From Eledone cirrhosa (Eukaryota): a stretch of 64,000 nt of DNA. How positions within the stretch are numbered: position 1 is the stretch's first letter; each line of letters starts with the position of its first letter. Where the stretch lies: contig OZ024740.1 of assembly GCA_964016885.1 (NCBI GenBank), positions 177,630,001 through 177,694,000 on the forward strand, in the 5' to 3' direction. Below, piece by piece: positions 616-59,980 of this stretch. The notes beneath the pieces are model-generated. The model did no database searches, was not told the origin of the DNA, and worked only from the letters and a program-made list of their open reading frames with translations. The position numbers and the translations under genes are program-made.

Positions 616-734
616 TTAATTCTATTATAAGTTGAGCCAACTTATACAGCTTCATAAGCAAATGAGATTAATCACCTCATTTACACAGACGAGAAAACTA
701 AATATTTTCGCCTGTTTTCAAAGTCCGACAGTTG

Positions 735-911: not shown

Positions 912-914
<3 letters not shown>
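735..914 (-). repeat. Second, inverted partial copy of the 253-615 element
   Basis: 735-914 is a diverged reverse complement of ~296-478; it ends in (TA)n. Confidence 0.75.
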
Positions 915-958
<44 letters not shown>

Positions 959-1549
959 GAAAGGTATAGAAATTGTTGTAGTGAGAAGCTAACAGTATTC
1001 CATAACATATATGCGGCTATAGCGTCAAAATGGGAAAAATAGTTAACGTAAGATGTAGGAAAAATAATTCAAACTCATCTCAAAAGAGAATCAGGATATA
1101 AATTCATCCACAGAATTTAGTGAAATCCAGGGAAAAATCAATAGAGCCTTAACTCATGATAAAATAAAGTCTAAAATAGTTATCCTTCAATTTGGAAAAA
1201 CATCAAATGCTCTGTATAGTCTTAAAGACTATTTCATGAAAACTTTCAGTGGAGATGGTTACGGTTGGATTTCAATCGTCAGCAGAGCTCAACTCGATAA
1301 CCAGGACTCTCACAGATTTATAAGCCAAAAAGGGAATTTTAAAACTGGCTAGTTCACCATCATGCGTGATTATGAAAAATGCACATGAGGAAAAACGGGG
1401 CTAGTGACGTCAGAATGAGGCGAATGTTTGTTTACAAGAAACAACAGTCAAATACATTCCGAATAAAACTCTACAAAAGGAGTTCAGCAAAAAGCAATAT
1501 TATCGCAGTTTTTATTAAAAAAACCGGGATTAGTCACAAATAATTTAAG

Positions 1550-36500: not shown

Positions 36501-39367
36501 CTAAGTGGAAGGAGATTGCTGCAGAACTGTTCCAAGGGCAATAGGCCAAAGACAGGCATGACCTCCTGGCCAGAGTATTTCGGCTGAAGCTTATCAACCT
36601 GATGGAGCACATCAAGAGAAGACAAGTCTTCGGATCAGTTATATGCGACATGTACACCGTCGAGTGGCAGAAGAGGGGCCTACCGCATGCCCATATCCTC
36701 ATCTGGCTGTCCGCAAGAATATCTCCAAACGACATTGACAAGGTCATCTCCGCTGAGCTTCCCGATCCGTCTGCGGCAAATACCTCTACGAAATAGTGAA
36801 GGCAAACATGGTCCATTGTCCATGTGGGCGGGGTTTCAATTTGAGCTCACCTTGCCTGAACAACAATGTCTGCAGCAAAAGGTTTACCCGAAAGTTTCTT
36901 AAAAAAACCCAGACTGGCGTGGACGGATACCCATTGTAGAGACGACGGCAACCCAGAAACGGTGGTTTCACAGCGACAGTTGGACAGCACGAGGTCGACA
37001 ACCGATGGATAGTGCCCTACTGCCCACTTCTTTCGAAGACCTTCGGTGCCAACATCAACGTGGAATTATGTAGCTCCGTCAAGTCCATCAAGTACATCTG
37101 CAACTACGTGAATAAGGGTTCAGACGCTACTATGTTCGGTCTACAGTAGGACAACAGCCGTGATGAGGTCTTGCAATACCAAGTTGGCCGTTACATCAGT
37201 AGCAACGAGGCTTTCTCGCGGACTTTTGGCTTCCCAATGCACCAAAGGCACCCTGCTATTGTACAGCTCGCGGTTCACCTTTAGAATGGTCGAAGGGTCT
37301 ACTTCACCGACGCTAATGCTGCCCAAATGATAGAGGACCCACGAGAAACAACCCTCACCGGGTTTTTTAAACTGTGTCGGACCGACTCTTTTGCACAGAC
37401 TCTGCTTTACCCCCAGGTGCCGTTCTACTACACTGGAATAAACAACAATGGGTGCGCAGAAAGGCAGGTCAATCTGTTGAAGGACACCCCGGCATAAAGT
37501 TTGACAGTTGCCTTGGGAGGGTTTATAGTGTGCACTCGAACCAGCACGAGTGCTTCTACCTTCGTCTTCTGCTGCAGGTGTTAGAGGACCCCAATCTTTT
37601 CAGGACCTCCGAAATTTTGACGGCTGCGTGTGCAGCACTTACAGGGAAGCTTGGCCTGCTGGAAGACGGTGCGCAGTGGGAAGCGACTTTGTTCGAAGCC
37701 TTTGCATTTCAATCGCCTATGCTTTTACGAGTCTATTTGCAGTAATGCTGCAGACTTGCGAACTAAGCAATCCTATGACTTTGTGGCTGCAGTTCAAAGA
37801 AGACTTATCCGAGGACTACAAACGCCGGGCGCAACTGCAGTACCCTCAAATGGAACGAACCAGCGATGAGGTCTTCAATTGTGCTTTGATTGACATTGAG
37901 GACAGAGTTGCATCACTCGGTGGAAATTATTTGCCGTCATATGGTCTGCCCCAAGCGCTCCGTACCGGGTCAAACGTACTTCCTACAGCTCTTCTTCAGG
38001 AAACATCCTACGACGTCGATGACCTTGCTAAGTGCGTCCGTGAAATTGAACCACAACTTCTTCCGGATCAACGTCATGTTTACACCATTGTTGCTTACCA
38101 TGTGCGCCAAAGAAAAGGAGGTATGTTCTTTCTGGATGCTCCTGGAGGGACGGGCAAAACATTTTTAACAAGGCTTCTCCTTGCAAAAGTCAGGATGCAC
38201 AATGATATTGCGGTTGCTGTGGCCTCTTCGGGGATTGCTGCAACTTTGCTGCCCAATGGCAGGACTACACACTCCACTTTTAAATTGCCCCTCAATTTAA
38301 CGAAGTCAGAAACACCCACTTGCAGCATCAGCAGGAATTCCGACCAAGACCAAGTCCTGAAATGGTGTCAACTCATTGTCTGGGATGAGTGCACCATGGC
38401 GCACAAAGAAGCTCTTGACGCATTGAACACAACCCTCCAGGATATCAGAGGCTACCAGTATCCGATGGAAGGTGTTACGCTTCTGCTTTCGGGTGACTTC
38501 AGGCAGACCCTCCCTGTAATTCCCAAAGGTACACGAACTGACGAGGTCCAAGCATGTCTGAAGTAATTTCCCCTTATGGCACATGTCAGAAACTGATTCT
38601 TACAACCAACATGAGGACTCAATTGCACGGTGACCAAACGTCCGCTGACTTTGCACGGGGCATTCTGAATCTTGGCAACGGCAACATGCCTCTTGATGCT
38701 GAAGGCGAACTGGAAGTGTGGCCATTTGCGACTTCTGTTAATTCTGCGGCAGAGCTCAAAGATAAACTGTTTCCGGAATTGAAACACCATTTCCAGGACT
38801 ACGCATGGTTGTACGAAAGAGCAGTGCTTGCTACAAAAAAACGCCACTGTTAACAATTTCAACGACCTACTACTGGATTCCCTTCCTGGTGCTCTTCGCA
38901 ACTACAAGTCTGTTGACACGGTGCCCGATCCAAATGAAGTGGTGAACTTTCCACCAAAATTCCTAAACTCTTTACAGCCTCCGGGACTACCGCCCCACAT
39001 GCTACACCTAAAAGTAGGTTAAACGTTTGTCCAGTTGCGTTTACTTACTAAGGTGCGGTGGACTCTTTCGAGAAGGCTCCACATACTGTCCGATTGCACG
39101 TCATGCTTTGCTCAAACATTGCATACTTCCCTCTGACATAAGTGGTGACATCTGTCCTGCTGACTCATGCCACTTTATTAAAGTACAAAAGCACCAAGCC
39201 GATTTTCTCCACGTGGAAATAGAAGCATACCTAATACTAATTGCATCAGAGTATTCGGTTTATTTTCTTTACATATTGTCGAGGCATGCAGTTTTTCCAC
39301 AATTAGTTCTGTTGGGGCCCACGTTCCAAAATAGCTTATCCCGGGCAACGCCGGGTACCACTGCTAG
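33600..39367 (+). mobile_element. Helitron with both canonical termini
   Basis: A|TC at 33599-33601; hairpin cccgg-gcaacg-ccggg at 39340-55; CTAG|T at 39364-68; no TSD; the 5' module is partly duplicated (~34285-34420). Confidence 0.92.
34790..39022 (+). pseudogene. Helitron RepHel pseudogene, helicase 3'-truncated
   Basis: 69-bp-period STPR-like repeats (34999-35290), CSFCNA..CCSNGKV, YDALQYPLLF, FINFTCNPKW, VEWQKRGLPHAH, VKSIKYICNYVNKG, DAPGGTGKT, WDECTM and GDFRQTLPV; ends at LPPHMLHLKVG. Confidence 0.95.
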
Positions 39368-40215: not shown

Positions 40216-40608
<393 letters not shown>

Positions 40609-41380
40609 GTCTGTGTGTATGTATGATATTTATGCATTTCCACATTTCTCTACCGATTTTGATGATTTTTTTCCAATGTGCTCCAAATTTACCAGGGCAG
40701 TCAACGCGTAATTATTTTTGCCAAATATTTCCTGCTTCTATGAAAAAAAAATCGATAAAACTAAATAAATGCTGTAACCCTCTCTCTTACACGCTTCATT
40801 TCTCTCACTACTACCATCAAAAATATATGAAACTAGATACATGTTGCAACTCTCTTTAAAAGGTTCATCCTTTCCTCTACTCCTCTCTCAATCTCCTCTG
40901 CAATTCTCTTTAAAAGGTTACTGCCTCCGTCTACTACTCTATCACCATTACAATTTAGAACAACGACAAAATTCTTTTGAAGGAACGCGACACAAACTTT
41001 GAAACCTAAGCAACACAACAACCATAGCTTTACTCTCTCCGTCGCTCTTCCCTCTCTCTACAATAGATTATTCCCCCTCTCTATAATTTAACTGCTTTAC
41101 TCTCTTCATGCTTCGAGGTTTAACACTACCTTCACTCTATCCGTCGCTCTTCTCTCTGTATATAATAGATCATTCCCCCTATTCGTTCGGGAACGCGAAA
41201 AAAACTTTGATAACTAAGCAACACATCATTTTATACAACAACAAACAGTCATAACGACACTCATACATCAAATATCAAAATTTAAAAAGCCGATAACACT
41301 AAATACATACTGCTCTCTCAACATTTTACATCAAATAACAAATATTCAAAAGCAACAGATAATTTATAAAACAACAAACA

Positions 41381-41643
41381 CTCTGTCGCTCTTCACTCCC
41401 TATATGACAACACTGCAGAGAGAGAAACAATGTATATGATCAAATGGAGCGTTCCGTATATTCCCCCTCTCTATAATTTAACTGCTTTACTCTCTCTGTC
41501 GCTCTTCACTCCCTATATGACAACACTGCACAGAGAGAAACAATGTATATGATCAAATGGAGCGTTCCGTATATTCCCCCTCTCTATAATTTAACTGCTT
41601 TACTCTCTCTGTCGTTCTTCACTCCCTATATGACAACACTGCA
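41381..41643 (+). repeat. 113-bp tandem repeat (~2.3 copies) upstream of a Helitron fragment
   Basis: ctctgtcg(c/t)tcttcactccctatatgacaacactgca starts at 41381, 41494 and 41607; sub-motifs also occur at 41025-41180. Confidence 0.85.
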
Positions 41644-41764
41644 GTGGAGCGTTCCGTATTGACATACGGCTTATCTGGGGCATTTTCAATCGGCTTATTG
41701 CAAATAACAACCCGCAAAATAACACTTCATATAACAGATTAATGCTATAGACATATGAATCGGA

Positions 41765-42676
41765 ATGTAACCCGTGAACCTTTTCCTGGGCAAAATTATT
41801 CGAACAGACATGACCTCATTGCCAGAGTGTTCAAACTGAAACTGGCTAAACTCATGGCTTTAATCAAAAAGGGTCAGGTATTTGGGGCTGTAAAATGTGA
41901 CATGTTCACCGTCTAATGGCAAAAACCAGGGCTGCCACATGCTCACATTTTGATTTGGTTAGCTGATAAAATCAATTCAAGTGCCATAGACAGCTTCATT
42001 TCGGCTGAAATCCCTAACGCAGCAACTGACCAGTAATTACATGACATCGTCAAAGGTAACATGATTCATGGTCCGTGTGCGTCGTGTCCTAATGGGCATC
42101 ACACGTGGCTGAAAGGGGGGTCGCGCAGTAAGAGATACCCCCAAAAATTTGTTGACCAGACTCCACAACAGTAAGGGGAGGTCAAGTCGACAATGGATGG
42201 GTGGTCCCTTACTGTCCGCTTCTCTTGAAGATGTTCAACGCCCACATCAACGTTGAGTTTTGCAACTCCGTCAAGTCGATAAAATACATATGCAAATATG
42301 TAAATAAGGGCTCTGATGCCTCAATGTTCGCATTTCAAGCTGAAAATAGCAGGGACGAGGTCACAGAATACCTGGCGGGGCGGTACATCAGTAGTAATGA
42401 AGCTTTTTGGCGCCTATTTGGTTTACCCCTACACCAACGTTATCCCGCCATCGTACAGCTTGCGGTGCATTTGGAAAATGGGCAAAGGATTTACTTTACG
42501 GACCAAACCGCCGCCAAGTTGGCCGCCGATCCGAAAGAGACCACTCTGACGGGTTTCTTCAAACTTTGCCAGTTCGATACATTTGCGCAAACAATTGTGT
42601 ACTCCCAGGTTCCATCCTACTTTATATGGTCGAAAAACACTTGGGTGCGAAGAAAGTCAGGTCAGACTTCTGAAAG
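41765..42676 (+). pseudogene. Helitron Rep-domain fragment, truncated by the inverted PLE arm
   Basis: RHDLIARVFKLKL, WQKPGLPHAHILIW, HGPC, VPYCPLLLKMFNAHINVEFCNSVKSIKYICKYVNKG and RYISSNEAFWR. Confidence 0.9.
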
Positions 42677-44912
42677 ACAAACAGCATGTGGTAGTAAAAA
42701 TAAATAAAACAAAATAAAATGAAATACAAAAACAAAAACAAAAAACAAAAACAAGCAAGTTACGAAGGTTTAACGATTTAAAATGTAAATATAGAAGATA
42801 TTATTATTCTAAACTAAAGAATTGAATAGAAAACCTTATTAAATTAATTAATATTTAAAATGCTTAAAAGATAGTATTGGTCCCTTCGAATAGAATAAAT
42901 TTTAAGTCATCAAAGTCGTATAAATTTAGGGTATTTTAATAAAAACTATAATTTAATATACATTATGATCCGTTCAGACGAATTACGTTATCAAAGAAAA
43001 AACTCTAAATAAAACTATGGTAGACCAATGGGAACAGAAATAAGTGAAACTATGGAGGATAGGAAGGATCGTAAAAGTAAAAATTAATATATAAAATAAT
43101 ATAATAAAAAGGAGTATGAAAGTAGAATTTATATATAATAAAATAAAAAGGGGCGAATATTAAGTGTGGAAGGGAGGAGGTTCGTTAGTTTTAGATGTAG
43201 GAGACTCAAAAATTAAACTATTCAATAAGATACAAACTTACAAGGCGATAATATTGAGTAAAAATGTAATAATGTTTAAGATGATAGATATGGTAAGGTA
43301 GCTAATAAGACAATGAAAACTAAAATTCGAAAATCGAGACAACCGTAAAAGATTAATAATAATGGTAATAATAATGAATTAAATCCAAAGAGATAGGGAA
43401 ATATAGCAGCTAATGGATACGGTTTAAACTACCAGAATTTTTAGGTCTATAATAGAAGAAAGAATTAGAAATGGCATGCGCACAGGAAGAAAATATCTCA
43501 GATTTTCTATTAAGCAATAAGCTCCTAGAGAAAATTATAGAATGGGTCTCTAGGACACAAAGATTACAGAATTTAGTGTGTGTTACTAGGTGATTAGAGT
43601 GTGCTACTATTCGCCAATTTAGGCTATATGGTATACCAGCCCCTTTTAAATCCCAGACGTGGTGTGCCAAAGAAGTAGAGTTCTTAAACTGGATGTGCTT
43701 AAAATTAGAAATACGTGAATTAAACCTAGTTTTAAAAGTATTAGAAGTGGAGCCTATATATGTGCTACAAGAAGAATTGGTCTTAAATTCACATGCATAA
43801 ACAATGTTCCTAGAGAGGCAGTGACCGTTTAAAGGGCAGTTATTATTTACTCTACAGTTATTACACTTCCGGGTACTAGTGGTTAGCTGATTACGCGGTG
43901 CATTATTCCTAGGGTTATTATAAGATAAGATCTGCTCGGGTGGTAAGTTATCAATAGAGCTATCTAGATTAGCAGTACGCAAAGAGGAGTAGCTATCCCT
44001 AATTTTCCTATTGTTAGTGCTAGCTAGATGAGAATTAATGTTAGGGGTGGTAGAGAAGGAGAGTTTAATTACGTTTTTATTAAATATACCATGATATATA
44101 TTAGTAGGAGGGAAATTTTTCTCTAAAATAGAAAAGAAAGACCTAGGGATATTAGATAATACTTCATGATCAAAGGGCGGGTTAAAGTAATTATTGAGTC
44201 TCCTCCTATTCTTACCTTTACTATCTCTACCGTGATCCGGTATCCTATTAATAGGATCAGGGTTAATACGAGGACCAGTTGAATTAACATTATTAGAAGC
44301 AGTTAAAACATTACCACTGGGTGAACGTTCAGAGTGCCTATCCTGCTCCCTAGAACTGATCTCGAAATGCGTACCATTAGACTCACTATTCCGACTACTA
44401 TTTCGGTAGCTAATCCTGGGGTTCGGTTTGGATATATTTGTAATATTTCTATGATTCCTATATTTTCTACTCCCATTCAAGGCCATATTATGGGATATTA
44501 CATTATTATGGGTAATCGGAGTCATTCCAAGGTTGTCCTCCTTATAATGTATTTTACCAGAGTAACCAGAGTTAGCTAGGGCGTTATTATAGTACTCTGC
44601 ATGTGAATTAAAGATTCCTATATCCTTGGAGAGTGTGGAGATTCTATTAGATACACCATTAATTATAGAACTAATCATAGATTTAGGGTGGTTGGAATTA
44701 GGATTAACGTAAGAGAGTGTCTCATTAGGCTTGTAGAAGGGTTTATAACTAATAGTGACCAAGTCTAATGTCACATCTAAAAAGTTGACTGCTCTATTGT
44801 TCTTATTAATCATGATCGAAAGGTTAAAATTTTTAAAAATTTATATAGTTTCTTCCTATTATGCTCAATGTTATTAGTGCTAGAGTCTATCACAAATAAT
44901 GCATCGTCACGA
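42677..44912 (-). mobile_element. Inverted, doubly truncated duplicate of the PLE segment 48319-50560
   Basis: ORF 43410-44813 is essentially identical to the C-terminal ~467 aa of ORF 47210-49822; the 3' UTR matches up to 50560; only scattered differences. Confidence 0.97.
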
Positions 44913-45191
44913 GAATAAGGGAATAATCTATATATGTATATTAATATAAGTTTCACTTTATGAATTTCAGTTTAAAATCAATTATAAGATAATCACCGAC
45001 AGAGGGCTAATATTTATAATTTTGGGTTATTTTCCACAATAAAGTGAAACTTATATTAATATACATAATCTTTGGGTATTTTCCACGAATTGGCATAACT
45101 AGCTCCCTGCCGGTCATTTCAATGCAGATATTGTTAAAGGTGAAATAACATAGTTCTAATTGATTTTAAACTGAAATTCTGAATAAAGAAA

Positions 45192-46179
45192 ATGCCTGGA
45201 CGTCCACCTGCACCAATTTTCATTGTTGAAAATGTTAATTCATCACAGCAGACGTTAAATATGGATTTGAAAATGAGAGAACTGGCGATTTTAACTGCAA
45301 ACAAACTCAGTATTATCGAATTTATGGCTCGGAACCGATTACTTTCAAACACTATGAACTGTCCTTCATGTAATATTTCCTGTTCATTTGTAAGTTACAA
45401 AGAAGGAATCGACCAATTTCGATGGAAATGTAAGGTATGCAGTTTAAGAAAATCTGTCCGCTCTGGGTCATTTTTTTTTTCGAGGCCACTTAGATTTACA
45501 TCAAATGATTTATATGATTTACTTCTGGTCAATTGGGTTCGAAAATATTATTATTGCTGACGAGATTCGGTGTAGTGAAAACACCATTATTGACTGGTGC
45601 AACTTTTTACGGGACGTGTGCAGTGAATGGGTGGATCGAAACCCATCAAAACTAGGTGGAATGGATGATGACGGAGTCCCAATAGTTGTACAAATCGATG
45701 AAAGTAAATACTTTCATCGAAAGTATGCTCGTGGGACCTGGCATGAAGGCCATTGGGTCATTGATGGGATCGATACCAATAATCCCAGAAAAAGTTTTCT
45801 TCGAGAAATCCCAGATCGCACTGCTGAGACCCTGCTACCCATTATACAAAACCATGTGCTGAGTGGATCCATGATACATACGGACCGATGGCGTGCGTAC
45901 AATCCCATACGACATATGCCTGTTAATTATCAGCACTCTACAGTGAATCATTCACTAAATTTTGTCGATCCGGTATCAGGAACGCATACCCAACATATTG
46001 AAGGACTCTGGTCTCATGCAAAAAAAATAAATAAATAAATAAACGGCACTAGCCGACCCATGTTTCAGTCATATTTGAATGAATTCATGTGGCGGTGGCG
46101 AAATGACAGCTTTATGAGTGGAGACGGTAGATGTTTCCCAAAGATTTTAAACTGTATATCGGAACAATATATTGTTTAA
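45192..46179 (+). pseudogene. Merlin (IS1016/ISXO2-like) DDE transposase with two frameshifts
   Basis: N-terminal CPSC...WKCKVC..SVRSGSFF, IIDWCNFLRDVC, VQIDESKYFHRKYARG, IHTDRWRAY, TVNHSLNFVDPVSGTHTQHIEGLW and YLNEFMWR; frameshifts at the T-run 45471-80 and A-run ~46020-27. Confidence 0.9.
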
Positions 46180-46405
46180 AGAAATATTTTTTTCTTTTTT
46201 ATTGTTGCGATATACAGTTTAAAATTTGCTTCCAAAAGTCCAAAAAGATATAAATCTTTAAAAAAATTATAATAATTCTTTATTATTATTTTCTTTTTCT
46301 GTAAATAATTATTTTTCTATATATCTCAAACCCTGCCAAACACCACATCTGTCCATCTGTAAATTTAAATGACTGTTCTTTCATACTTATCCTCTTCAAC
46401 TACAC

Positions 46406-46541
46406 ATGGACATTTGTCTTACTGTGGAGAAGGAATTAGAAACAATTTTATCAAAATTCACTGCTATTCGGGAACATACAAAGCGAACGTTGGGTGGCAT
46501 ACCAACTTCTGTTGATAATATAAGGAAAGAAATCAGTGAAG
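46406..46541 (+). pseudogene. RMND5: Isolated RMND5-like (CTLH/GID E3 ligase subunit) first coding exon
   Basis: MDICLTVEKELETILSKFTAIREHTKRTL..IRKEI resembles the recalled RMND5A/B N-terminus (MDQCVTVERELEKVLHKF...LKHEI); ends at a phase-1 donor G|GTATTT; no further exons recognised. Confidence 0.7.
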
Positions 46542-47209
46542 GTATTTATTACATTTTGATTGCATTTTTATTACAACCACTAATACTTACTATTATACCG
46601 AGGGGCCCTGCCCGTTCGGGAAAGGCTCTACAGACACGGATTCCGGGACGGAAACCCCTTGGAAAAGAAGTGTCCCAGATGCGTTTGCAACGAGGAAACT
46701 GTGGGGATATGTCGCCGGCCAACAAATGGTCCTCTTGGAGAAAAGGGCACTCAGTCCCAGCCAATTCCATGAAAGATGGGTGAAAGTAGCAATAATGGCC
46801 CGTGTACGTGGGCCATCTCTCTATATCGGCTTGTACAGGTAAGAGAAGAAGGGAGCACCCCCCTCTCTAATAAATCGCCAAAAGAAAATAATTAAAAAAA
46901 TCTATATTTCTTTTAACGGCTAAAAAAAGGGGGGAATGTAAATTTGTTGGAATAGCCTCATACATTGAAGTAAGCAGCAACTGCAGCAAGTAAGCGGCAT
47001 TTAGGCCGCTAAAATTGGATATCGCCGACTTTTGGTGTATTGAAGGCTTCTTTGTCTATTTTTATAATTTTTCGGCTCTGTTGTATTACATTGAGCTATA
47101 CCCTATACTGTCATTTCTATAATACGACGAGTGTGTTTTACTCAAAGAAACTCTCGTATTTTAATTCTTATTACGGCTCCCGATTGATTGAGCTTTTTCC
47201 TATATACTG

Positions 47210-49822
47210 GTGTTTCGGCCTTTATATATATCTGACAGTATGCTAACAAAGAGCTACTTGCCTTTATCTCTGAAGAATATTCCCATCCCCTCTAGAAATA
47301 CTTATGAAAAACTCTTGATTGCTAGCGTTAATTCATTCGTAAAAAGGATTAGATGGCGTGCTTTCCACTTTGATATTAATAAGAATAGGACTAACCCCCG
47401 GGATAAGACTCCCTTCAATAACTTCGGCTTCAAGACTTATAAAAGTCCACCACATAATGTTCTATTAGATAATTTCGAGAACGATTTACTTTCCCTTGTC
47501 AAAAATATAAAATATAAACCGCATAATAAATATGGTAACTATAATAAATTTGACAAGTTCCAGTCTAAACTTAGGAATATTGTTAAGGATTTTAAAGGGA
47601 ATAAGTCTATTCTTGTCCCGGCTGACAAGACTAAGAATCTTTACTCTATGGATTATATTACTTACCGTAGTTTTATTTATAAGGAGCTACATAAAAATTA
47701 CAAAAAGACAACGCAGGATAATTTGGATCAAATCAATAATGAGGGCCTCAAGATAGTTTCGGGTCTGGGTTTTGATAAGTATACCCAACCATATTACCCT
47801 AGGGAACCGAGATTCACGCTTAAGGATCATAAGATAGACTTCATAAGTAATCCTTCTGTTAGACTTATCAGTCCTTCTAAGTCTGATATAGTTATAATTA
47901 GTAAGAAAATCCTTGACCTGATTTTACCTACCGTTAGGGAAAAGGTTCCTTTTAATCTATGGGGAAATACTAAGGATGTTATAGATTGGTTCTCTGGTAT
48001 CAATAGACTTGAGTCTAGTAGGTTCATCCAATTTGATATTGACGCCTATTACACGTCAATTTCACCTATCCTCCTTAATAAGGCCTTAATAATGGCCATG
48101 CGAATGTCTAGTCTTACGCGACCCCAGATTGATATTATACTAGCCGCCCGTAGGACTATCATCAAATTCGAAGATAAACTTTGGACGCGTAAAAACACAC
48201 CCAACAATTTTGACGTTACAATGGGTTCGAGTGATTCGGCCCAGGTAACTGATCTTGTTGGGCTGTTCCTCTTGAACGAACTGTATGTCAGCTTTCCGCA
48301 CATTGAAGGAGGACTTTATCGTGACGATGCATTATTTGTGATAGACTCTAGCACTAATAACATTGAGCATAATAGGAAGAAACTATATAAATTTTTAACA
48401 AATTTTAACCTTTCGATCACGATTGATAAGAACAATAGAGCAGTCAACTTTTTAGATGTGACATTAGACTTGGTCACTATTAGTTATAAACCCTTCTACA
48501 AGCCTAATGAGACACTCTCTTACGTTAATCCTAATTCCAACCACCCTAAATCTATGATTAGTTCTATAATTAATGGTGTATCTAATAGAATCTCCACACT
48601 CTCCAAGGATATAGGAATCTTTAATTCACATGCAGAGTACTATAATAACGCCCTAGCTAACTCTGGTTACTCTGGTAAAATACATTATAAGGAGGACAAC
48701 CTTGGAATGACTCCGATTACCCATAATAACGTAATATCCCATAATATGGCCTTGAATGGGAGTAGAAAATATAGGAATCATAGAAATATTACAAATATAT
48801 CCAAACCGAACCCCAGGATTAGCTACCGAAATAGTAGTCGGAATAGTGAGTCTAATGGTACGCATTTCGAGATCAGTTCTAGGGAGCAGGATAGGCACTC
48901 TGAACGTTCACCCAGTGGTAATGTTTTAACTGCTTCTAATAATGTTAATTCAACTGGTCCTCGTATTAACCCTGATCCTATTAATAGGATACCGGATCAC
49001 GGTAGAGATAGTAAAGGTAAGAATAGGAGGAGACTCAATAATTACTTTAACCCGCCCTTTGATCATGAAGTATTACCTAATATCCCTAGGTCTTTCTTTT
49101 CTATTTTAGAGAAAAATTTCCCCCCTACTAATATATATCATGGTATATTTAATAAAAACGTAATTAAACTCTCCTTCTCTACCACCCCTAACATTAATTC
49201 TCATCTAGCTAGCACTAACAATAGGAAAATTAGGGATAGCTACTCCTCTTTGCGTACTGCTAATCTAGATAGCTCTATTGATAACTTACCACCCGAGCAG
49301 ATCTTATCTTATAATAACCCTAGGAATAATGCACCGCGTAATCAGCTAACCACTAGTACCCGGAAGTGTAATAACTGTAGAGTAAATAATAACTGCCCTT
49401 TAAACGGTCACTGCCTCTCTAGGAACATTGTTTATGCATGTGAATTTAAGACCAATTCTTCTTGTAGCACATATATAGGCTCCACTTCTAATACTTTTAA
49501 AACTAGGTTTAATTCACGTATTTCTAATTTTAAGCACATCCAGTTTAAGAACTCTACTTCTTTGGCACACCACGTCTGGGATTTAAAAGGGGCTGGTATA
49601 CCATATAGCCTAAATTGGCGAATAGTAGCACACTCTAATCACCTAGTAACACACACTAAATTCTGTAATCTTTGTGTCCTAGAGACCCATTCTATAATTT
49701 TCTCTAGGAGCTTATTGCTTAATAGAAAATCTGAGATATTTTCTTCCTGTGCGCATGCCATTTCTAATTCTTTCTTCTATTATAGACCTAAAAATTCTGG
49801 TAGTTTAAACCGTATCCATTAG
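47210..49822 (+). CDS. PLE polyprotein: reverse transcriptase + Cys-rich linker + GIY-YIG endonuclease (first ATG at 47240), probably Naiad-like
   Basis: SLKNIPIP, VPADKTKNLY, TLKDHK, RLISPSK, QFDIDAYYTSI, FDVTMGSSDSAQV, GLYRDD, NFLDVTL, FNPPF, CNNCRVNNNCPLNGHC, NIVY..TYIGST..FKTR, CNLC and LNRKSE..CAH; 870 codons without a stop. Confidence 0.95.
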   Translation: MFRPLYISDSMLTKSYLPLSLKNIPIPSRNTYEKLLIASVNSFVKRIRWRAFHFDINKNRTNPRDKTPFNNFGFKTYKSPPHNVLLDNFENDLLSLVKNIKYKPHNKYGNYNKFDKFQSKLRNIVKDFKGNKSILVPADKTKNLYSMDYITYRSFIYKELHKNYKKTTQDNLDQINNEGLKIVSGLGFDKYTQPYYPREPRFTLKDHKIDFISNPSVRLISPSKSDIVIISKKILDLILPTVREKVPFNLWGNTKDVIDWFSGINRLESSRFIQFDIDAYYTSISPILLNKALIMAMRMSSLTRPQIDIILAARRTIIKFEDKLWTRKNTPNNFDVTMGSSDSAQVTDLVGLFLLNELYVSFPHIEGGLYRDDALFVIDSSTNNIEHNRKKLYKFLTNFNLSITIDKNNRAVNFLDVTLDLVTISYKPFYKPNETLSYVNPNSNHPKSMISSIINGVSNRISTLSKDIGIFNSHAEYYNNALANSGYSGKIHYKEDNLGMTPITHNNVISHNMALNGSRKYRNHRNITNISKPNPRISYRNSSRNSESNGTHFEISSREQDRHSERSPSGNVLTASNNVNSTGPRINPDPINRIPDHGRDSKGKNRRRLNNYFNPPFDHEVLPNIPRSFFSILEKNFPPTNIYHGIFNKNVIKLSFSTTPNINSHLASTNNRKIRDSYSSLRTANLDSSIDNLPPEQILSYNNPRNNAPRNQLTTSTRKCNNCRVNNNCPLNGHCLSRNIVYACEFKTNSSCSTYIGSTSNTFKTRFNSRISNFKHIQFKNSTSLAHHVWDLKGAGIPYSLNWRIVAHSNHLVTHTKFCNLCVLETHSIIFSRSLLLNRKSEIFSSCAHAISNSFFYYRPKNSGSLNRIH

Positions 49823-51487
49823 CTGCTATATTTCCCTATCTCTTTGGATTTAATTCATTATTATTACCATTATTATTAATCTTTTACGGTTGTCTCGATT
49901 TTCGAATTTTAGTTTTCATTGTCTTATTAGCTACCTTACCATATCTATCATCTTAAACATTATTACATTTTTACTCAATATTATCGCCTTGTAAGTTTGT
50001 ATCTTATTGAATAGTTTAATTTTTGAGTCTCCTACATCTAAAACTAACGAACCTCCTCCCTTCCACACTTAATATTCGCCCCTTTTTATTTTATTATATA
50101 TAAATTCTACTTTCATACTCCTTTTTATTATATTATTTTATATATTAATTTTTACTTTTACGATCCTTCCTATCCTCCATAGTTTCACTTATTTCTGTTC
50201 CCATTGGTCTACCATAGTTTTATTTAGAGTTTTTTCTTTGATAACGTAATTCGTCTGAACGGATCATAATGTATATTAAATTATAGTTTTTATTAAAATA
50301 CCCTAAATTTATACGACTTTGATGACAAAATTTATTCCATTCGAAGGGACCAATAATATCTTTTAAGCATTTTAAATATTAATTAATTTAATAAGGTTTT
50401 CTATTCAATTCTTTAGTTTAGAATAATAATATCTTCTATATTTACATTTTAAATCGTTAAACCTTCGTAACTTGCTTGTTTTTGTTTTTTTGTTTTTGTT
50501 TTTGTTTTTGTATTTCATTTTATTTTGTTTTATTTATTTTTACTACCACATTCTGTTTGTTCTCCTATCATCATCATCATTATTTCTTTACTATCACTTG
50601 CTGTTCGTCTTCCTGTAATTTGCTTTGCATCATAACATGCCTCCCTATATTAATATATCAATCGCGTAAATATCTCTTAAACATTTTCCATTGGCTCTGT
50701 CTGTCTGCATTTATATACTTTTATATTATTATATTATTTATTATTATAATATTAACATTTATATATCATATTATTTCTATGTAATTGTATTATACGTATT
50801 GATATAAGTCAGATATTTAAGGTACTGTTTTGTAATATTTTGTAATATTTTATGAATGTAAAATCCATATACCTCTGTATATTTATTATCATTACTCTAT
50901 GTATTTATATATATAGATTTTTTTTCAACATACTTCAGCTTTATGATATTTTTTCTTACCCCGTGAAAAACTTTATGTACAATTTGTTGACAATAAGTGA
51001 TATGTATGATGTAGTTTTGTATATATTTTTTGATATCAGTAGATTATTCTATTATTTTTTGTTTAACTTATATTTTTTTGAATAGTTTATTTTTTGTATA
51101 GTGTATGCGCACCGTCAGGGTGTTTTTATATTGTAGAGAGTATATTTATACTTATTAAGTGTTAGTATGTGTTTGTGTAAGTGTGTATATATATATGGAT
51201 ATATATATACATATATTAAGCTTTATATTTCTTATTACCCATTATATTGTATTCTATATCATATTGTAATTCCCACATTGTATTACCATGTTGTATTTAA
51301 TTTATTTGTCTCATACTGTAATATCAACGTTGGTTTGACACTTTACTCACTTTATTGCCCTATAGTCTATATTTGTAACTGCATACTTTTTCCTTCATAT
51401 CTCTCATAAGCTTTCATGAATATGTATTCCCTATTCTTCTGAGTTTTGGCTAGTTTCTGGCCGTTAATGCTTCTTATCTGTTTACTT

Positions 51488-51528
51488 GCCCTGATGAGTC
51501 CTGATTAATGGGACGAAACATTGTAGGC
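51488..51528 (+). ncRNA. Minimal type I hammerhead ribozyme in the PLE pLTR
   Basis: Stem I gcc/ggc; CTGATGA at 51491-97; stem II gtcc/ggac; GAAA at 51515-18; very short stem III aca-t-tgt; GTA triplet at 51523-25; followed by aataaa. Confidence 0.88.
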
Positions 51529-51675
51529 TAATAAAGACTTTTGATGTATTGAAGGCTTCTTTGTCTATTTTTATAATTTTTCGGCTCTGTTGTATTACAT
51601 TGAGCTATACCCTATACTGTCATTTCTATAATACGACGAGTGTGTTTTACTCACAAGCACTCTAGTATTTTAATT

Positions 51676-51730
<55 letters not shown>

Positions 51731-52159: not shown

Positions 52160-53605
52160 TATGTCATTCGAAATCATGGAAGTGAGGCTGTGACTGAAGT
52201 TCTTATCAAAATCTATAACAAAATCTGGCACACTGGAGATTGGCCATCACCGTGGACCCAGTCACCCATTATCACAATCCTCAATTAAGGCAATCTACAA
52301 CACTACCAAAATTATAGAACCATCAGCCTTATGAGACACACAAGCAAAGTGATGATAAAAGTCATTCTGAACAGACTTAAGTCACAAACTGAGGAAATCA
52401 TTGCGGAGGAGCAGGCTGGTTTCCGTTGCAGAAGGAGCATTACAGAGCAAATTTTCAATTTGGAAGTTCTATGTGAGAAGTACAGCCAACACCACCAGGA
52501 TCTGAACCATGTGTTTGTTGACTTCAAGAAAGCCTTTGACAGGGTAAGGTATGATGCGTTGTGGGCGACCATGAAGAAATATAACATGGGCCAAAAGAAA
52601 ATCCACACGATATAACAGCTGTATGCGAAAGCCTCAAGTGCGGTACTGGCCCAAGTCACGATGGGGGGATTGGTTCCATACGTGAATAGGAATCCGTTAG
52701 GCCTGTCTCCTCTCATCAACACTGTTCAACCTCTTCCTTGAGGGCAATTCCCGCTCAATCAGTGTAGGAGGACGAACTGTCACAAACTTAAGGTTCGCTG
52801 ATGACATCGATGTCTTACCTGGAAGTGAAGAAGAACTCGCCGAGCTGGTGAACCGCCTGGATATAACCTCTACTAGATACGGCAGGGAGATCCACGCTGA
52901 GAAAACCAAACTGATGACAAACATCTCACAGCCAACAGAAACAATGATCACCGTAAATGATCAAGATCTGGAGACTGTGACGCAGTTCAAGTGTTTTGGC
53001 GCCATCATCAGTGAAGAGAGATCAAAGCCAGAGGTCCTTGCAAGGAGTGCACTAATAGCCGCGGCACTTATTAAACTGAAACCATTCTGGAGAGGTAAAA
53101 CATATCACCCTCAAGTACAAAATATAACTCCTGCGTGTGTTGGCCATGTCCAATATTTTATACGCATGCGAGTCACGAAACCTAACTGATGAATTGCAAA
53201 GAAAGATACAAGCAGTGCAGATGAGATGTTTTAGGATAATCCTGGGAATCTCCTACACAGAACATATGTCGAAAGAGGAAGTCCACAAAAGAATCCCCAG
53301 CATGTGAGCGACTTTGAAGATCTGCTGACCACGGGGAAGAGGAGAAAGCTGGGGCGGTAGGGGCATTTAACAAGATCAGACGGACTCACAAAGATGATAC
53401 ATAAGGGAACAGTGTTGGGAAAGAGAACGCGAGGCAAACAGGGGAAGCGATGGACAGAAAACATAGCTGAGTGGACAGGAAAGAACTTTGCCACAACCCA
53501 AGTACTCGCCCATGACTGTCAGAGATGGAAGCAGTTGGTGCAACGTTCAACAGTGCAGTAACCCAACGACCCCGAAAAGGGTTAGGGGACCATGATGATG
53601 ATGAC
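52160..53605 (+). pseudogene. 5'-truncated RTE-clade LINE (RT region to 3' tail)
   Basis: NYRTISLMRHTSKV, EEQAGFR, FVDFKKAFDRV, NLRFADDI, EKTKLM and ILGISYTEH; (gat)n tail at ~53592. Confidence 0.9.
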
Positions 53606-54543
53606 ATAAATAAACATACATACATACATACATATTCATATACATGTGTTTGTGTCTGTATATATGTAGCGTTAGGTAAGAATGTTATAGTAAGCTTTTG
53701 TTTTCTTTTATGTTGTATTGTTCAGCAAAATATCTCAAGTCTTTAATATTAGAACAGAATTATTCTGATGACAAGACAAACGAATTTGCATTGCTATCCA
53801 GGCGAATGGAATTGCTCTAGTATTGGAAGTAGTATTGGAAGAGGACAACTGGGTGAAAGCGCTTGTCCTGGTGGTCAGAATGACCGTGGCTTTTCGTGGG
53901 CTTTCTCCACGAGTAACACTCGGTGGCCTCGCCCTTATGGGGGGAAATTTTCCTTCGTTTTTATTTCAAGTTTTGGGATATCATTTCTTTTTTTTTTTTA
54001 GACGCAGAATCCCGCAATGTACCGTCCTGTGCTGTCCTTGATGTATGTTTTTGTAAACACTTTGTGGTTAATAAAGAAAACATCATTATTATTATTATCA
54101 TCATTAAGTCTGACTTTGCATTTTATGTCCCAAGAATAAAAATGTCAAACGTAGTAGCAAAGTTAAAGTTTTCTTATGACACGTCACGTTTTCATGGCAT
54201 GAGAAGCTTATTGACAAAACACATAGAAACATAGAATGTGAATTTGGAAATATCTGTGACGTTTCAATGAGTGAATGAAACGCAATAAGACATTATATCT
54301 ATCTATCTATCTATCTACTCTCTCTGAATAAAGAAACATATCTATCTCTCTCTATATAGGACGTGCGGTAGAACGCTCGTAAGTGTTTGTAAAATTTTCA
54401 CTACAAAAACAGAATTCATTGTGTAAAATGTTATATTGTTTGATAGATTAACACCCAGGCTGAATTGTCAGCTGGGTGGCAATCTCAGTTTTCGCCCCGC
54501 AGGGGCGGAAATTTAATTTAAAAAAGTTGACAAGTTTTAAAAA

Positions 54544-56296
54544 ATGTTCCTAACTTTAACAATGTGTGACTTACAACGAACGCTAGACTGCGAGAAGAGA
54601 GGGAAAGAGACAGATATAAACGTTATATCTCCCTCTAGTTCCATAGAAGTATCTATGGAAACGAACAACAACAAAACTTCGTTTCGTAAAGAAATGGATA
54701 TTTACACAACAAATAATGAAAATAACAGCCGACAACAGACACCAAAAAATACAGAAAATGCAGAAATTGAAACAATTGACACAACTACAAACGAAAAAAC
54801 CAACAACAACAACAAAATCGAAAAAACAAGATTCGCACAGACTGTGATAAATAAAACAGTGTGCAAACACATCGACATAAGCAACTCCAAACAAATGTTG
54901 ACCGATGCAAAACAATTCATAACCTTTGAAGAAAAGGGTGGGTTTCATATAAACTCACCCTTGCAAATTAAACGAGAAACAGTTCGAAGGACTGTAACCT
55001 TCCGAACTGTTTCAAATCAAACAAAAAAACCGGTATTCATCAGTCAAGGAGAAATTGAAACAACCCTGAAAGAGGCTCTGCCGGACATTGATTTTATGCA
55101 GAGGGCCAGACTATATGGAAGTGTTTCGGTACATTTTACAAACGAGGCCCTCGCACAAAAGCATTCTGTTACACCAGTCATCACAAAAACACACACCTTT
55201 TTCCCTACTTACATGGGAAAAAGAACTCAAAAAATTTAAATAAATAATATACCACCAAACATCAACATTTGGTGGATCTTGGCCGGATTTATAGAGCCAG
55301 AAACTGATACAATTCTTTCGGTCAGGAAATCGACCAGACAAAGGTGGGCAGGGACAAATTTGGAAATTCTGATACAAATGACACCAGAAAGAATTTCCAA
55401 AATCCCCGAAAGAGTGCTGGTCGACAACCAGAACTACATCAACATCGTAACTTGGGGCAGAAAGCCTCACTGTTTTCGATGTGCAAGCACATCACACCTA
55501 AAAGCCTCCTGCCCTTTACAAACAAATCTTTTTTAAAAAAAGTACTTTTACCAACACCAACACCAAAACAATCACCACCACCACCACCACCACAACAACA
55601 ACAACAACAACAGACGAAACGAGCAAACACACAAAAACAAACAGCCACTCAACCACCAACAACAGGAAAAACAGAGACAACACCCCTGAAGAACACAGCC
55701 CCACCCCATCCGCTCCATCAAACACTAACACAAACACACACACCGAAACACCACCACCACACAACATACCCCTACCCCACACTCCTGACGATGATTATTC
55801 ATTGACGGATGAAGCTGCTTCTCCTTCTTTAAGTGAAGAAGAGGAAGAGCCGCGGCAATCTAAAAAACAAAAAAAAGACACCACAAAACCCCCAAAACTC
55901 CAATCACCAACACACAACCACAGACACAAACAACAACACAAACAACACCACAGTCAAACATCCCCCTTCCAGCAACCCCCCCCCCCAACACATGCACCCA
56001 CCATAAAAAGAAAACTCCCGGACGAACAACAAACTAAAACAACACAACAAAAACACAAACAACAATACGCATACATCAACACAAACAACAAGAGTTTGAT
56101 GGAAGTCATCTCCCAAAACCCCAAGGTGGAGATGGAGGGCAAAACTTTCGTCAAGGCAGAATCGTCTCCACACTTTAAACTTATAAGGGTTTCTATGGAA
56201 ACCTATAATGTCCTGAAAAATAAATTTTCACAGGACGTGGGCAACCCCTGCCAGAAACCCAACAACCGAGTCCTGTTAAAATGTTTCCCCACCTAA
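54544..56296 (+). pseudogene. Tx1/L1-like LINE ORF1 (frameshifted) with a CCHC zinc knuckle
   Basis: RRM-like segment YGSVSVHFTNEALA; HCFRCASTSHLKASCP (CX2CX4HX4C); low-complexity T/Q/K/P tail. Confidence 0.8.
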
Positions 56297-56399
56297 CACC
56301 CCATCCAGCACCCAAATGGAGATTGAACAACCCGATCTCCAGGAAACGAAAAGGTAAGTGAACCTTTTCGTCCTTTTTCTCCAACTTTTCTTCACCAAC

Positions 56400-56957
56400 A
56401 TGGCTAGTTTACGAGTTGGAAGCGTGAATGTGCGTGGCCTAGGGATGCCCTGGAAACAGGGCCAACTTTTAAACGACCTTAGGTCGGACGGTATGGATGT
56501 GATAGCCATCACCGAGCCCAGGATCCACAACAGGCAGCAACTAACGCCCATCTTCGACGACTTTGAGATCTACACATCTCTCTGTCAGCCAGGAGGTGGA
56601 GAGGGAGTGCCTGTCATGTTTCGGAAGAACCTGGACGTCGAAGTACAGCAAGTACACTTGGACCCGGAGGGTAGACTGGTAGTCCTAGACGTGAACAGTA
56701 TTGGAGGTGGAGCCTTCAGACTGGTGGCCGTTTATGCCCCGACCGGGCAATCGCAATCACGGCCAGACTTCTTTAAGCGTCTAGAGTCTTTTCTGGGAAC
56801 GTCTCACTCCTTACTTTTAGTGGGGGACTGGAATGGCATCCTAGATGCACGATGGGACTATATGGGAGCATGTCTCAGTAGAGAGAGGTGAAACAGCCTC
56901 AAAATTTTAATCGGCCAATTCCAACTGGCCGATAGGTATCGACTGGATTACCTGACT
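56400..56957 (+). pseudogene. Tx1/L1-like ORF2 APE endonuclease, 3'-truncated
   Basis: MASLRVGSVNVRGL, DVIAITEP, DPEGRLVVLDV, VAVYAPT and LLVGDWNGILD; stop at 56891; no RT downstream. Confidence 0.88.
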
Positions 56958-57614: not shown

Positions 57615-58819
57615 ATAATAATAAATTTGAAGACTAATATCCAAAGAGGGCTAGATAAGGATAAATATATATAAAATATATAAGAACCCTAGAGCAAATC
57701 TATATATCTAAAACAGAGGATATATGTCTGTCTGTCTGTCTGTCTGTCTGACTCCCTAAAACTCGAGAACTACCCAACTGATTTTGTTCAAACTTTACAC
57801 ATGTAATACTTATGGTCGTGTGAATGTTTTGAACAAAAAAATTTCAAAGTTTCAATGCCCTAGGGACCGCATTAGGCGATTTAGCGATCTCTCTCTGTTT
57901 TTCTTAGTCTGTCTTTTTACATAGATACATAGGTATAACGTCGCGCCCGTATAATATCTATCTGCTTTCACCCTTAACGGGATCTTCTGATACTAAAAAA
58001 ATCAATCTGGGAACGCAGAAGTAAATATTTCGAAAAACGTTACACACTATATATATATATAAACACACTATATATACATATATACACACACATATAGCGT
58101 CATAATGTCGTAATGCAGACAGCCAGACATACAGACAGATATTATAAGGGCGCAGCGTTATATCTATGTATCTATCTAAAAAGAAAGGCTAATAATTATA
58201 GAGAGATCGCTAAATCGCCTAATGCGGTCCCTAGTGCAATGAAAATTTGAAATTGTTTTTGTTCAACACACCCACAGGACCATAATTATTACATATGTAA
58301 AGTTTGAAAAAACTCGGTTGGGTGGTTCTCGAGCTTTAGGGAGACAGACAGACATTCTCTGTTTTAGTTATATAGATATATATATAATTATATATTCGTG
58401 TACAGATATTTTTGCATACACAATAACAAAATATAAACAAACGTATTTATTTCACGAGGCTCGACAGCAGCAAACCAACAACAAAAAAAGAGGGAACGCA
58501 ATTACATACTTTTGTAAAATCTTAATGAAAAATTATTTGCCTATTTACTTACCCAAGGCAACTTCACTTTTTATTAGGACTTCTACATCAATTGGTGAAC
58601 ATACGACGAAGCTGTTTCAGAAAGGAGGGATAAACATGCCAATCTATGTTTAGAATCCCGAGCAACGCCGGGCCATTCTGCTAGTATTTATTAAAATAAT
58701 AGATTAAAGTTTAAGCAAGGAATCGTTGCTTTCACCCTTAAGGGGATCTTCTGAAGATCCCGTTAAGGGCGAAAGCCGCGATTCTTTGCTTAAACATTAA
58801 TCTGTTATTTTAATAAATA
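57610..58819 (-). repeat. Penelope pLTR (family of 10740-10920) split by a Helitron and ending in a head-to-head hammerhead palindrome (58685-58819)
   Basis: 57610-57698 joined to 58685-58752 gives a contiguous reverse complement of the pLTR; the palindrome is centred at 58752. Confidence 0.82.
57699..58684 (+). mobile_element. Non-autonomous Helitron with an internal inverted Helitron-5'/pLTR module
   Basis: A|TC at 57698-700; hairpin cccgagcaacgccggg; CTAG|T at 58681-85; 57699-57960 is inverted at ~58130-58377. Confidence 0.85.
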
Positions 58820-59049: not shown

Positions 59050-59980
59050 ATATCTTAAACGAAATACATAAGAACCTACCTTACCTTAACAGTGGCCTCT
59101 GCCGAGACGACGCACTTTTCCTCTTAGACTATAAAAAGTTCAATATAGAAAGAACTAGAAAACAATTACATAAAATATTTAAAAACTATAACTTAGGTAT
59201 CACTTTAGATAAAAACACCAACAATATTAACTTCCTGGATGTCACTCTCTACTTAGACTCTAAAAAATATACACCTTATCATAAACCTAATGAAAAACGT
59301 TTCTATGTTAATACCAACTCTAACCACCCTAAATTTGTACTGACCCAAATCATTAAAGGGGTATCTAATAGAATCTCCAGCCTTTCTTACAACGAGAATA
59401 CGTTTAATCGTAACTCCCAATACTATAATGAATCCTTAGCCCGTTCCGGCCATAGAGATAAAATTAAATTTAAACCTAAATCGTCAACCACCCATAGACA
59501 ACCTAATATAATTTCACACAACATGGCCATGAATAAAAGTAAATATGATCATAGCATTGAAAATCCCGACTCCTATACAGAGGGCACCATAAAAAAAGTT
59601 AAATCACACCACAGCAATAATCCTAAGAAAAACCACAGAAAGAAAAATATAGATAAGAAGGAACCTAACACCACACTAAACAGTAGTATGAATAACAACC
59701 ATAAGAAGAATAGAAGAAGTAACACATTTTTTAATTCGCCGTTCAACTTAAATGTATCAACAAACATACCTAAAGCTTTCTTCTCTATTCTAGACAAAAA
59801 CTTTCCAATTAACCATAAACACCACAACCTATTTAACAAAAACACAATTAAAATCTCCTACTCCACCACACCTAACATAGCAGACCATATAGCCAGCACC
59901 AACAAGAGAAAGATTAAAAATTACTTCAAATTACACCAAAGTAATAATGTCCAGCATAGAAATAAACTGAACAATAACAC
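59050..59980 (+). pseudogene. Internal fragment of a PLE related to the 47210 ORF
   Basis: GLCRDDALF, NFLDVTL, YHKPNE..YVNTNSNHP, ISHNMAMN, FFNSPF and FNKNTIKISYSTTPNI; bounded by microsatellites. Confidence 0.9.

What the first reader, a model, noticed from the sequence alone, without database searches (positions are those of the whole stretch)
42677..50560. 2.2-kb near-identical inverted Penelope arms enclosing unrelated cargo
Seen: 42677-44912 is an almost perfect inverted copy of 48319-50560. Between the inverted arm and the intact element's 5' end (44913-47026) lie a Merlin transposase, an RMND5-like exon and a GC-rich segment, and the left edge cuts a Helitron Rep gene. Known: PLEs often form 5' inverted duplications. 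Unusual here: the inverted arm lacks both the 5' end and the pLTR and is separated by 2.1 kb of foreign sequence. Inference: the block may be one template-switching insertion that captured cargo, and its transcript could form a long dsRNA hairpin.
Basis: partly seen in the sequence, partly recalled or inferred. Interest (0 to 1): 0.72.

Follow-up and report, generated by a model that had tools for sequence, protein, structure and literature searches.

The report
Broken palindromic transposon inside Penelope retroelement
The supposed cargo is half of a common mirror-image DNA transposon sitting in the front end of an ordinary Penelope retroelement, and the inverted 2.2-kb copy next to it likely arose later, when that mirror broke at its centre and repair copied the neighbouring DNA backwards.

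Summary
The arms are real in the assembly: 42677-44912 is an inverted copy of 48319-50560, with 8 substitutions and 3 indels. The 2.1 kb between them is not unrelated cargo. It is half of a multi-copy palindromic Merlin DNA transposon: 21 of 30 sibling regions have paired ends with 8-bp target duplications, and one is a whole 3.8-kb palindrome. Its terminus abuts the Penelope 5' pLTR where sibling tandems have the hammerhead. The RMND5 exon and GC-rich segment belong to this transposon. The window's copy breaks 67 bp from the palindrome centre; 13 of 15 siblings also break within 160 bp of it. Best reading (0.5): Penelope first, Merlin into it, then a centre break repaired by fold-back copying of Penelope with loss of the left-hand DNA. 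An ordinary Penelope inverted arm plus two deletions remains possible (0.27); one retro-insertion with cargo is unlikely (0.1). No read spans a junction, so misassembly is untested. The scan found this Merlin family before on other DNA of this genome. An ordinary nested rearrangement; low interest.

The parts
40578..42679 (+). 5' part of a high-copy Helitron (5' repeats and Rep fragment), cut at 42679; the roughly 2.2 kb that follow in siblings are missing
   Evidence: siblings 91-97% identical; 13 of 14 align up to 42679 and all 14 go on with Helitron sequence not found at the right flank
42677..42679 (.). outer junction: 3-bp microhomology shared by Helitron and Penelope arm
42677..44912 (-). 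inverted copy of Penelope 48319-50560; frameshifted near 44833; outer end about 1.0 kb short of the family's usual 3' ends
44913..44932 (.). 20-bp junction filler; 13 bases match the Helitron 5' repeat at 41063-41075 on the other strand (suggestive only)
   Evidence: 13 or more matched by 10 of 1000 shuffles within 5 kb, 43 of 1000 window-wide
44933..47026 (+). right half of a palindromic Merlin DNA transposon: 29 bp of the lost left arm (44933-44961), 77-bp spacer (44962-45038), right arm of 1988 bp ending in the terminus at 47026
45192..46179 (+). Merlin transposase, broken by frameshifts near 45471 and 46020-46038; weak N-terminal zinc-ribbon match below cut-off
46252..46589 (+). captured piece of the host RMND5 gene (upstream, exon 1 at 46406-46543, start of intron), carried by the Merlin family
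   Evidence: host copy at G000:C5:79536336, 88% DNA identity, no Merlin ends, CTLH exons 9-11 kb downstream
46590..46868 (.). GC-rich segment; a shared part of the Merlin arm, origin not determined
47027..47034 (+). 8 bases following the Merlin terminus = inferred right target-site copy; they are pLTR sequence (same 8 bases at 51536)
47027..47171 (+). remnant of the Penelope 5' pLTR; its upstream part with the hammerhead is replaced by Merlin
47192..49822 (+). open Penelope-like ORF (876 codons stop to stop, first Met at 47240): RT motifs, N-rich middle, C-terminal GIY-YIG-like nuclease; Hydra-clade motifs
48319..50560 (+). right arm: the part of the resident Penelope copy that is duplicated
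51487..51529 (+). hammerhead-like motif in the 3' pLTR (read by eye; not found by Rfam)
51536..51727 (+). 3' pLTR/tail to 51680 followed by a (TA)n tract; single-copy flank beyond

Best explanation
The block is a Penelope retroelement with half of a palindromic Merlin DNA transposon at its 5' pLTR, and the inverted arm likely formed afterwards by DNA repair, not by retrotransposition. Step 1 (shown by anatomy): a Hydra-clade Penelope-like element lies in a (TA)n tract. Step 2 (strongly inferred, about 0.9): a roughly 4-kb palindromic Merlin transposed into its 5' pLTR, just past the hammerhead. Step 3 (inferred, about 0.55): the palindrome broke 67 bp from its centre; the free 3' end folded back on its own strand 3.4 kb away at 48319, after adding 20 bases of filler, copied 2.2 kb of Penelope, and joined the Helitron through 3 bases of microhomology. 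That one event would remove the left Merlin arm, the upstream pLTR and the rest of the Helitron. The product is predicted to be an inert relic: the copied arm is frameshifted and lacks both ends, and the Merlin has one terminus only.
For: Merlin family: 182 matches from 40 of 2327 candidates scored; 21 of 30 regions have both ends with an 8-bp duplication (at most 1 mismatch; chance 0.14% per pair); the C11 copy is a whole 3828-bp palindrome. The terminus abuts pLTR sequence exactly where sibling tandem copies have the hammerhead. Centre fragility: window -67; 13 of 15 siblings break within 160 bp of the centre, two of them at -68 and -69; 2 lack the centre. Unlike usual Penelope inversions: 22 of 34 sibling loci examined have an inverted piece, all 22 with about 25 bp or less foreign at the inner junction, and 19 of 22 with both outer ends at 51567-51680. 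No clean target: Helitron continuation absent from the window and 10 kb each side, right flank single-copy. No donor: junction pattern found once. Age hints: the arms share 16 locus-private ORF changes (12 N:4 S) against 5 arm-specific ones; the two pLTRs differ at 6/145, the arms at 8/2236; tree: arm tips 0.001 on a 0.015 stem. Human fold-back duplications have spacers of median 3,428 bp and some junction insertions (PMC3907307, passages).
Against: The dating is weak. With a wider panel the shared-private count drops to 9 (8 N:1 S), and a normal Penelope inversion (C4:789) looks alike: 7 shared, 3 arm-only; another (L153) has 5 N:1 S shared. Five of the six pLTR differences sit in one 11-bp cluster; counted as 2 events P=0.096. 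Merlin-older-than-arms is not significant (P=0.09). Three of 22 siblings also lack an outer end, by about 125-230 bp. The two siblings examined over 20 kb that lost the whole left arm (C18, C28:80) show no inverted duplication of their flank. The left terminus and left target copy are gone, so the insertion cannot be shown by a TSD pair (none within 55 kb upstream). No clear microhomology at the inner junction; the filler match has a 1-4% chance level. A 77-bp spacer should lower fragility (PMC7999016, passages).
Confidence: 0.5

Rival explanations
1. The inverted arm is an ordinary Penelope 5' inversion made at insertion. Merlin later jumped into the 5' pLTR; a centre-break deletion removed its left half up to the arm, and a separate deletion removed the arm's outer 1 kb with the rest of the Helitron.
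For: Inverted pieces are common in this family (22 of 34 loci examined). One-sided Merlin deletions are the rule. Outer ends are lost in 3 of 22 siblings. C4:789 and L147 have ordinary arms 99.4-99.7% alike.
Against: Needs two deletions. Needs the 0.015 stem to come from an unsampled source lineage or from gene conversion; shared changes are N-rich (12:4 vs 51% N among lineage-shared changes, P=0.044). In six siblings pLTR/tandem and inverted divergences are within about fourfold of each other; here elevenfold.
Confidence: 0.27
2. One retro-insertion: a donor Penelope already carrying Merlin in its pLTR was transcribed, reverse transcription stopped at the Merlin hairpin, and the cDNA folded back to copy 2.2 kb.
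For: Same strand geometry as the repair model. Penelope can move foreign DNA between pLTRs (PMC3846280, passages). The ORF is open.
Against: No donor in the assembly: the exact junction occurs once and no other copy above 97% was found among those scored. The insertion would also have to delete at least 2.2 kb of Helitron. The break site is shared with Merlin copies that have no Penelope.
Confidence: 0.1
3. Assembly or library artefact (chimeric read, amplification chimera or merged haplotypes).
For: No record bridging a junction was listed in the runs laid, but these lack the window's private letters and look like other individuals, so this is no test. Arm difference (0.36%) is of the size of allelic difference (general knowledge).
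Against: Both arms carry their own derived changes against 14-18 sibling copies. Two junctions with microhomology and filler, and a break at a family hotspot, fit a biological event. No N in the window.
Confidence: 0.08
4. Merlin transposase made the duplication by aberrant (alternative-end) transposition, or the block is the inside of a giant Merlin.
For: Earlier scan notes report giant cargo-carrying Merlin elements in this genome (not checked here).
Against: Neither arm end lies at a Merlin terminus; no left terminus or matching target copy within 55 kb upstream.
Confidence: 0.05

Closest known systems
Penelope-like elements, Hydra clade (Craig et al. 2021, PMC8557442; section 11 and passages read)
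   Same: Single ORF with RT and C-terminal nuclease, DKT motif, cysteine linker, CxxC and CxH motifs, hammerhead-like motif in the pLTR, partial tandems, (TA)n targets; inverted 5'-truncated copies are typical.
   Different: Typical inverted copies are immediately adjacent and end in the pLTR; here 2.1 kb of Merlin intervenes and the arm stops 1 kb short. RWK reads RWR; linker is CxxCx5C; ORF is longer than most relatives (876 vs about 700 aa) through N-rich stretches.
Merlin superfamily (IS1016/IS1595-related; PMC8101967, passages)
   Same: DDE_Tnp_IS1595 transposase, termini 5'-GG, 8-bp target duplication.
   Different: Described TIRs are 24-462 bp; here the arms are about 1.9 kb and each holds the transposase gene. 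The window's copy has one terminus only.
Fold-back inverted duplications with spacer (Hermetz et al. 2014, PMC3907307, passages); palindrome fragility (PMC7999016, passages)
   Same: Break, fold-back on the same strand, unduplicated spacer of a few kb, junction insertion, adjacent deletion.
   Different: The human cases are megabase terminal events through dicentric chromosomes; this one is a 2.2-kb interstitial tract, and no inverted microhomology is clear at the inner junction.
Multicopy animal Pack-TIRs such as Ssk-FB4 (Tan et al. 2021, PMC8277862, passages)
   Same: A TIR transposon that took a host gene piece and amplified it by transposition.
   Different: Merlin is not mentioned in that paper's main text (0 occurrences); here only exon 1 with flanks is carried.

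Membership tests
Merlin DNA transposon (44933-47026) | DDE_Tnp_IS1595 transposase | tested here: met
   PF12762 E=1.6e-13, above cut-off
Merlin DNA transposon (44933-47026) | termini beginning 5'-GG | tested here: met
   terminus at 47026 shared by siblings
Merlin DNA transposon (44933-47026) | 8-9 bp target duplication (family) | tested here: met
   21 of 30 regions; 5 lacked one or both ends, 4 had ends without a match
Merlin DNA transposon (44933-47026) | paired termini and TSD at this locus | tested here: not met
   left end and left target copy absent within 55 kb; read as lost
Penelope-like element, Hydra clade | RT plus C-terminal GIY-YIG nuclease in one ORF | tested here: inconclusive
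   motifs seen in sequence; whole-ORF Pfam and PDB blank; GIY-YIG E=0.026 below cut-off; 264 unnamed relatives, one of 120 listed with PF00078
Penelope-like element, Hydra clade | pLTRs, partial tandems, inverted truncated copies | tested here: met
Penelope-like element, Hydra clade | DKT, cysteine linker, CxxC/CxH, (TA)n targets | tested here: met
   sequence against section 11 of PMC8557442; RWK reads RWR, linker CxxCx5C; no phylogeny with named Hydra elements was run
Penelope-like element, Hydra clade | hammerhead in pLTR | tested here: inconclusive
   core motifs visible at 51487-51529 and in siblings; Rfam found none; cleavage not tested
Canonical Penelope 5' inversion | inverted copy immediately adjacent to the forward copy | tested here: not met
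   2114 bp foreign here; about 25 bp or less in 22 of 22 siblings
Canonical Penelope 5' inversion | outer end at the pLTR/tail | tested here: not met
   ends at 50560; 19 of 22 siblings end at 51567-51680 on both sides
Fold-back inverted duplication | unduplicated spacer and adjacent deletion | tested here: met
   3406-bp spacer; loss of Merlin left arm, upstream pLTR, Helitron 3' part
Fold-back inverted duplication | inverted microhomology or templated insert at the turn | tested here: inconclusive
   20-bp filler, 13-bp local match at 1-4% chance
Fold-back inverted duplication | ancestral allele without the duplication | not testable with these tools
   no second copy of the right flank in the assembly; runs did not hold the locus

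The most novel reading that the evidence does not exclude
The block is a frozen Penelope integration intermediate: the enzyme copied a read-through RNA from a lost donor that carried Merlin, stalled at the Merlin hairpin, and its cDNA folded back to prime the second strand. It would show directly how Penelope inverted arms form and that a retroelement can carry a DNA transposon with a host exon.
Probability: 0.1. Interest if true: 0.6.

Novelty: new member of a known kind. Interest (0 to 1): 0.25.

Why it matters
As it stands it is one nested, rearranged transposon locus. Its modest value: it suggests that this genome's palindromic Merlin elements are portable break sites that can delete and duplicate neighbouring DNA, and it warns that inverted Penelope arms need not come from retrotransposition. 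The Merlin family itself (2-kb arms, RMND5 exon in over 100 places) is more interesting than this locus, and the scan has noted it before.

Tried and rejected
Reads: no RNA holder listed. Contigs of four runs (two samples, one study) laid on 41700-48300 listed no record across a junction, but tables were cut and the runs lack the window's private letters. Three RAD-seq runs and one contig run laid on 46975-47124 listed no piece across 47026/47027. Neither tests the assembly. pLTR divergence as a clock: five of six differences are one cluster. The two-arm control failed for C4:789 (arm counted twice) and was redone. One search's private counts (9 N:1 S shared) were superseded. Pfam and PDB gave nothing for the whole Penelope ORF; the word-indexed protein search gave nothing for the exon; Rfam gave only chance hits. 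'44933 is the Merlin 5' end' rejected: siblings continue past it as the mirror arm. Empty-site or clean-insertion reading rejected. Literature: searches; one search (Merlin with gene-capture terms) listed 5 papers, none about Merlin capture by title or abstract; this is a thin search of an open-access library. Papers were read as passages, one section (PMC8557442 s.11) or part 1 of 4 (PMC11167929); no supplements were read.

Full report
Observation. The inverted match runs 42677-44915 against 50560-48316 at 99.15%. Trimming one mismatch that lies in junction filler gives arms 42677-44912 and 48319-50560 with 8 substitutions and 3 indels, 3406 bp apart. The forward element spans 47027-51680 with a 145-bp direct repeat at both ends and an open frame of 876 codons. 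The window lies at G000:C1:177630001-177694000 in a 3.0-Gb animal genome; the species was not determined here.

The Penelope element. Pfam and PDB do not name the ORF; the C-terminal part has a weak GIY-YIG match (E=0.026) and 264 unnamed relatives exist. It carries RT motifs, a DKT motif, a cysteine linker and CxxC/CxH motifs, and ends in (TA)n, as described for the Hydra clade (PMC8557442 section 11). A hammerhead-like motif sits at 51487-51529 (read by eye; Rfam blank). Siblings are 82-96% identical.

The cargo is one transposon. A search with 44916-47026 gave 182 matches from 40 of 2327 candidates scored, several nearly full length at 95-98%. In siblings the sequence ending at 47026 occurs on both sides, pointing outward. 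Of 30 regions examined, 21 have two such ends with an 8-bp duplication (at most 1 mismatch), 5 lack one or both ends and 4 have ends without a match; chance is 0.14% per pair. [quoted passage not shown] One copy (C11) is a whole 3828-bp palindrome with a transposase frame in each arm. The window keeps 29 bp of the left arm, the 77-bp spacer and the right arm. The RMND5-like piece is real: 24 relatives, profile hit to human RMND5A 1-45 at E=5.9e-8, a host copy on C5 with 88% identity over 46252-46589, no Merlin ends and CTLH exons 9-11 kb downstream. It is present in 25 of 31 family regions checked and gives 114 protein matches from 150 of 163 candidates scored, one being the host gene. So Merlin, not Penelope, carries it.

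Where Merlin sits. The eight bases after the terminus are pLTR sequence; in every sibling pLTR shown the same eight-base site is preceded by the hammerhead motif or a damaged form of it. A terminus flush against mid-pLTR is what transposition into the pLTR gives. The left end and left target copy are not within 55 kb upstream. The junction pattern has one exact hit, this locus; the other hit (1 mismatch) is a short Merlin without Penelope.

Junctions and flanks. The outer junction cuts a Helitron Rep with 3 shared bases; the 14 siblings go on with Helitron sequence that is not at the right flank, nor within 10 kb either side of the window. The right flank is single-copy. So this is no clean insertion: DNA was lost. 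The inner junction has 20 bases of filler, 13 of which match the Helitron 5' repeat 3.8 kb away on the other strand; shuffles reach that in 10 of 1000 nearby and 43 of 1000 window-wide. The Merlin break lies 67 bp from the palindrome centre. Thirteen of 15 transposase-bearing siblings break within 160 bp of the centre (two at -68 and -69, with different partners), 2 lack the centre. These siblings were picked by similarity to the window's half.

Comparison with normal Penelope inversions. Of 34 top-scoring sibling loci (14, 20), 22 have an opposite-strand piece (two of them look like copies of one insertion). From the maps, all 22 have about 25 bp or less of foreign DNA at the inner junction, and 19 have both outer ends at 51567-51680; 3 fall short by about 125-230 bp. 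The window has 2114 bp foreign and falls 1 kb short.

Order of events. Both arms have their own derived changes. In the ORF part they share 16 changes private to this locus (12 N:4 S; private changes elsewhere 74% N, lineage-shared 51% N, P=0.044) and differ by 5. With a wider panel the count is 9 (8 N:1 S). Tips are 0.001 on a 0.015 stem, median tip 0.013. Merlin has 6 private changes in 1397 bp. This order (Penelope, Merlin, arm) fits, but weakly: Merlin vs arms P=0.09; the pLTR contrast rests on one cluster; and the ordinary inversion at C4:789 shows 7 shared and 3 arm-only changes.

Mechanism. Best reading: break near the centre of the inserted palindrome; the bottom strand's free end adds 20 bases, folds back to 48319, copies to 50560 and joins the Helitron. 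One event explains the arm, the lost Merlin half, the lost upstream pLTR and the cut Helitron. It works like human fold-back duplications with spacers (median 3,428 bp; PMC3907307), at far smaller scale. Shown: anatomy, family membership, break clustering, lost DNA. Inferred: insertion into the pLTR (about 0.9), fold-back timing (about 0.55). The main rival is an ordinary inverted arm plus two deletions (0.27).

Reads and RNA. No RNA holder was listed, and the runs laid appear not to hold this locus, so misassembly and the hairpin transcript are untested. A transcript across 7.9 kb could pair the arms; whole Merlin palindromes with a 77-bp spacer would be easier dsRNA sources (inference).

Novelty. 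Each ingredient is known: nested transposons, palindrome breakage, fold-back repair, Pack-TIRs (PMC8277862). The Merlin family is unusual in arm length against the 24-462 bp reported, but earlier scan notes already describe it in this genome, consulted after my reading was fixed. Interest 0.25.

Noticed in passing
G000:C11:53551046-53554873 (L029/L030): A whole 3828-bp Merlin palindrome with perfect 8-bp duplication sits in the 3' UTR of a related (80%) Penelope copy: a second Merlin-in-Penelope insertion that kept both arms.
   Followed up: partly
window 46252-46589; host at G000:C5:79536336: Merlin family carries RMND5 exon 1 with flanks, often in both arms of 1.7-kb palindromes; over 100 matches.
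   Followed up: yes
window 45192-45557: Merlin transposase has an N-terminal IS1595-type zinc-ribbon match (E=0.002, below cut-off); PMC8101967 reports this in only a few eukaryotic proteins.
   Followed up: partly
window 48700-49400: Penelope ORF has Asn-rich stretches between RT and nuclease, as reported for Adineta elements (PMC3846280); most relatives are about 700 aa against 876.
   Followed up: no
window 41381-41644 and 42163: The Helitron copy has a 113-bp tandem duplication in its 5' region and lacks about 60 bp at 42163 relative to siblings.
   Followed up: no
window 21664-25982 (-) and 35089-38566 (+): Two further Helitron Rep/PIF1 elements; the second is about 69% identical to the cut one. 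Three Helitrons within 22 kb.
   Followed up: no
window 59156-59379: Fragment of a distant Penelope-like RT (67% to 48373-48596).
   Followed up: no
window 52250-53560 and 54541-56900: Decayed LINE RT fragment, and a LINE-like ORF1 with low-complexity region followed by an endonuclease fragment.
   Followed up: no
window 238-973, 57741-58354, 58685-58819: Short inverted-repeat pairs (MITE-like).
   Followed up: no
G000:C4:320063000-320073000 and C4:320538000-320548000: Two near-identical Penelope insertions in opposite orientation 475 kb apart: segmental duplication or duplicated haplotype.
   Followed up: no
G000:C2:221965440 and C1:208670444 regions: Two Merlin copies at different loci have the same 8-bp target duplication; possible target preference or insertion into a shared repeat.
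   Followed up: no
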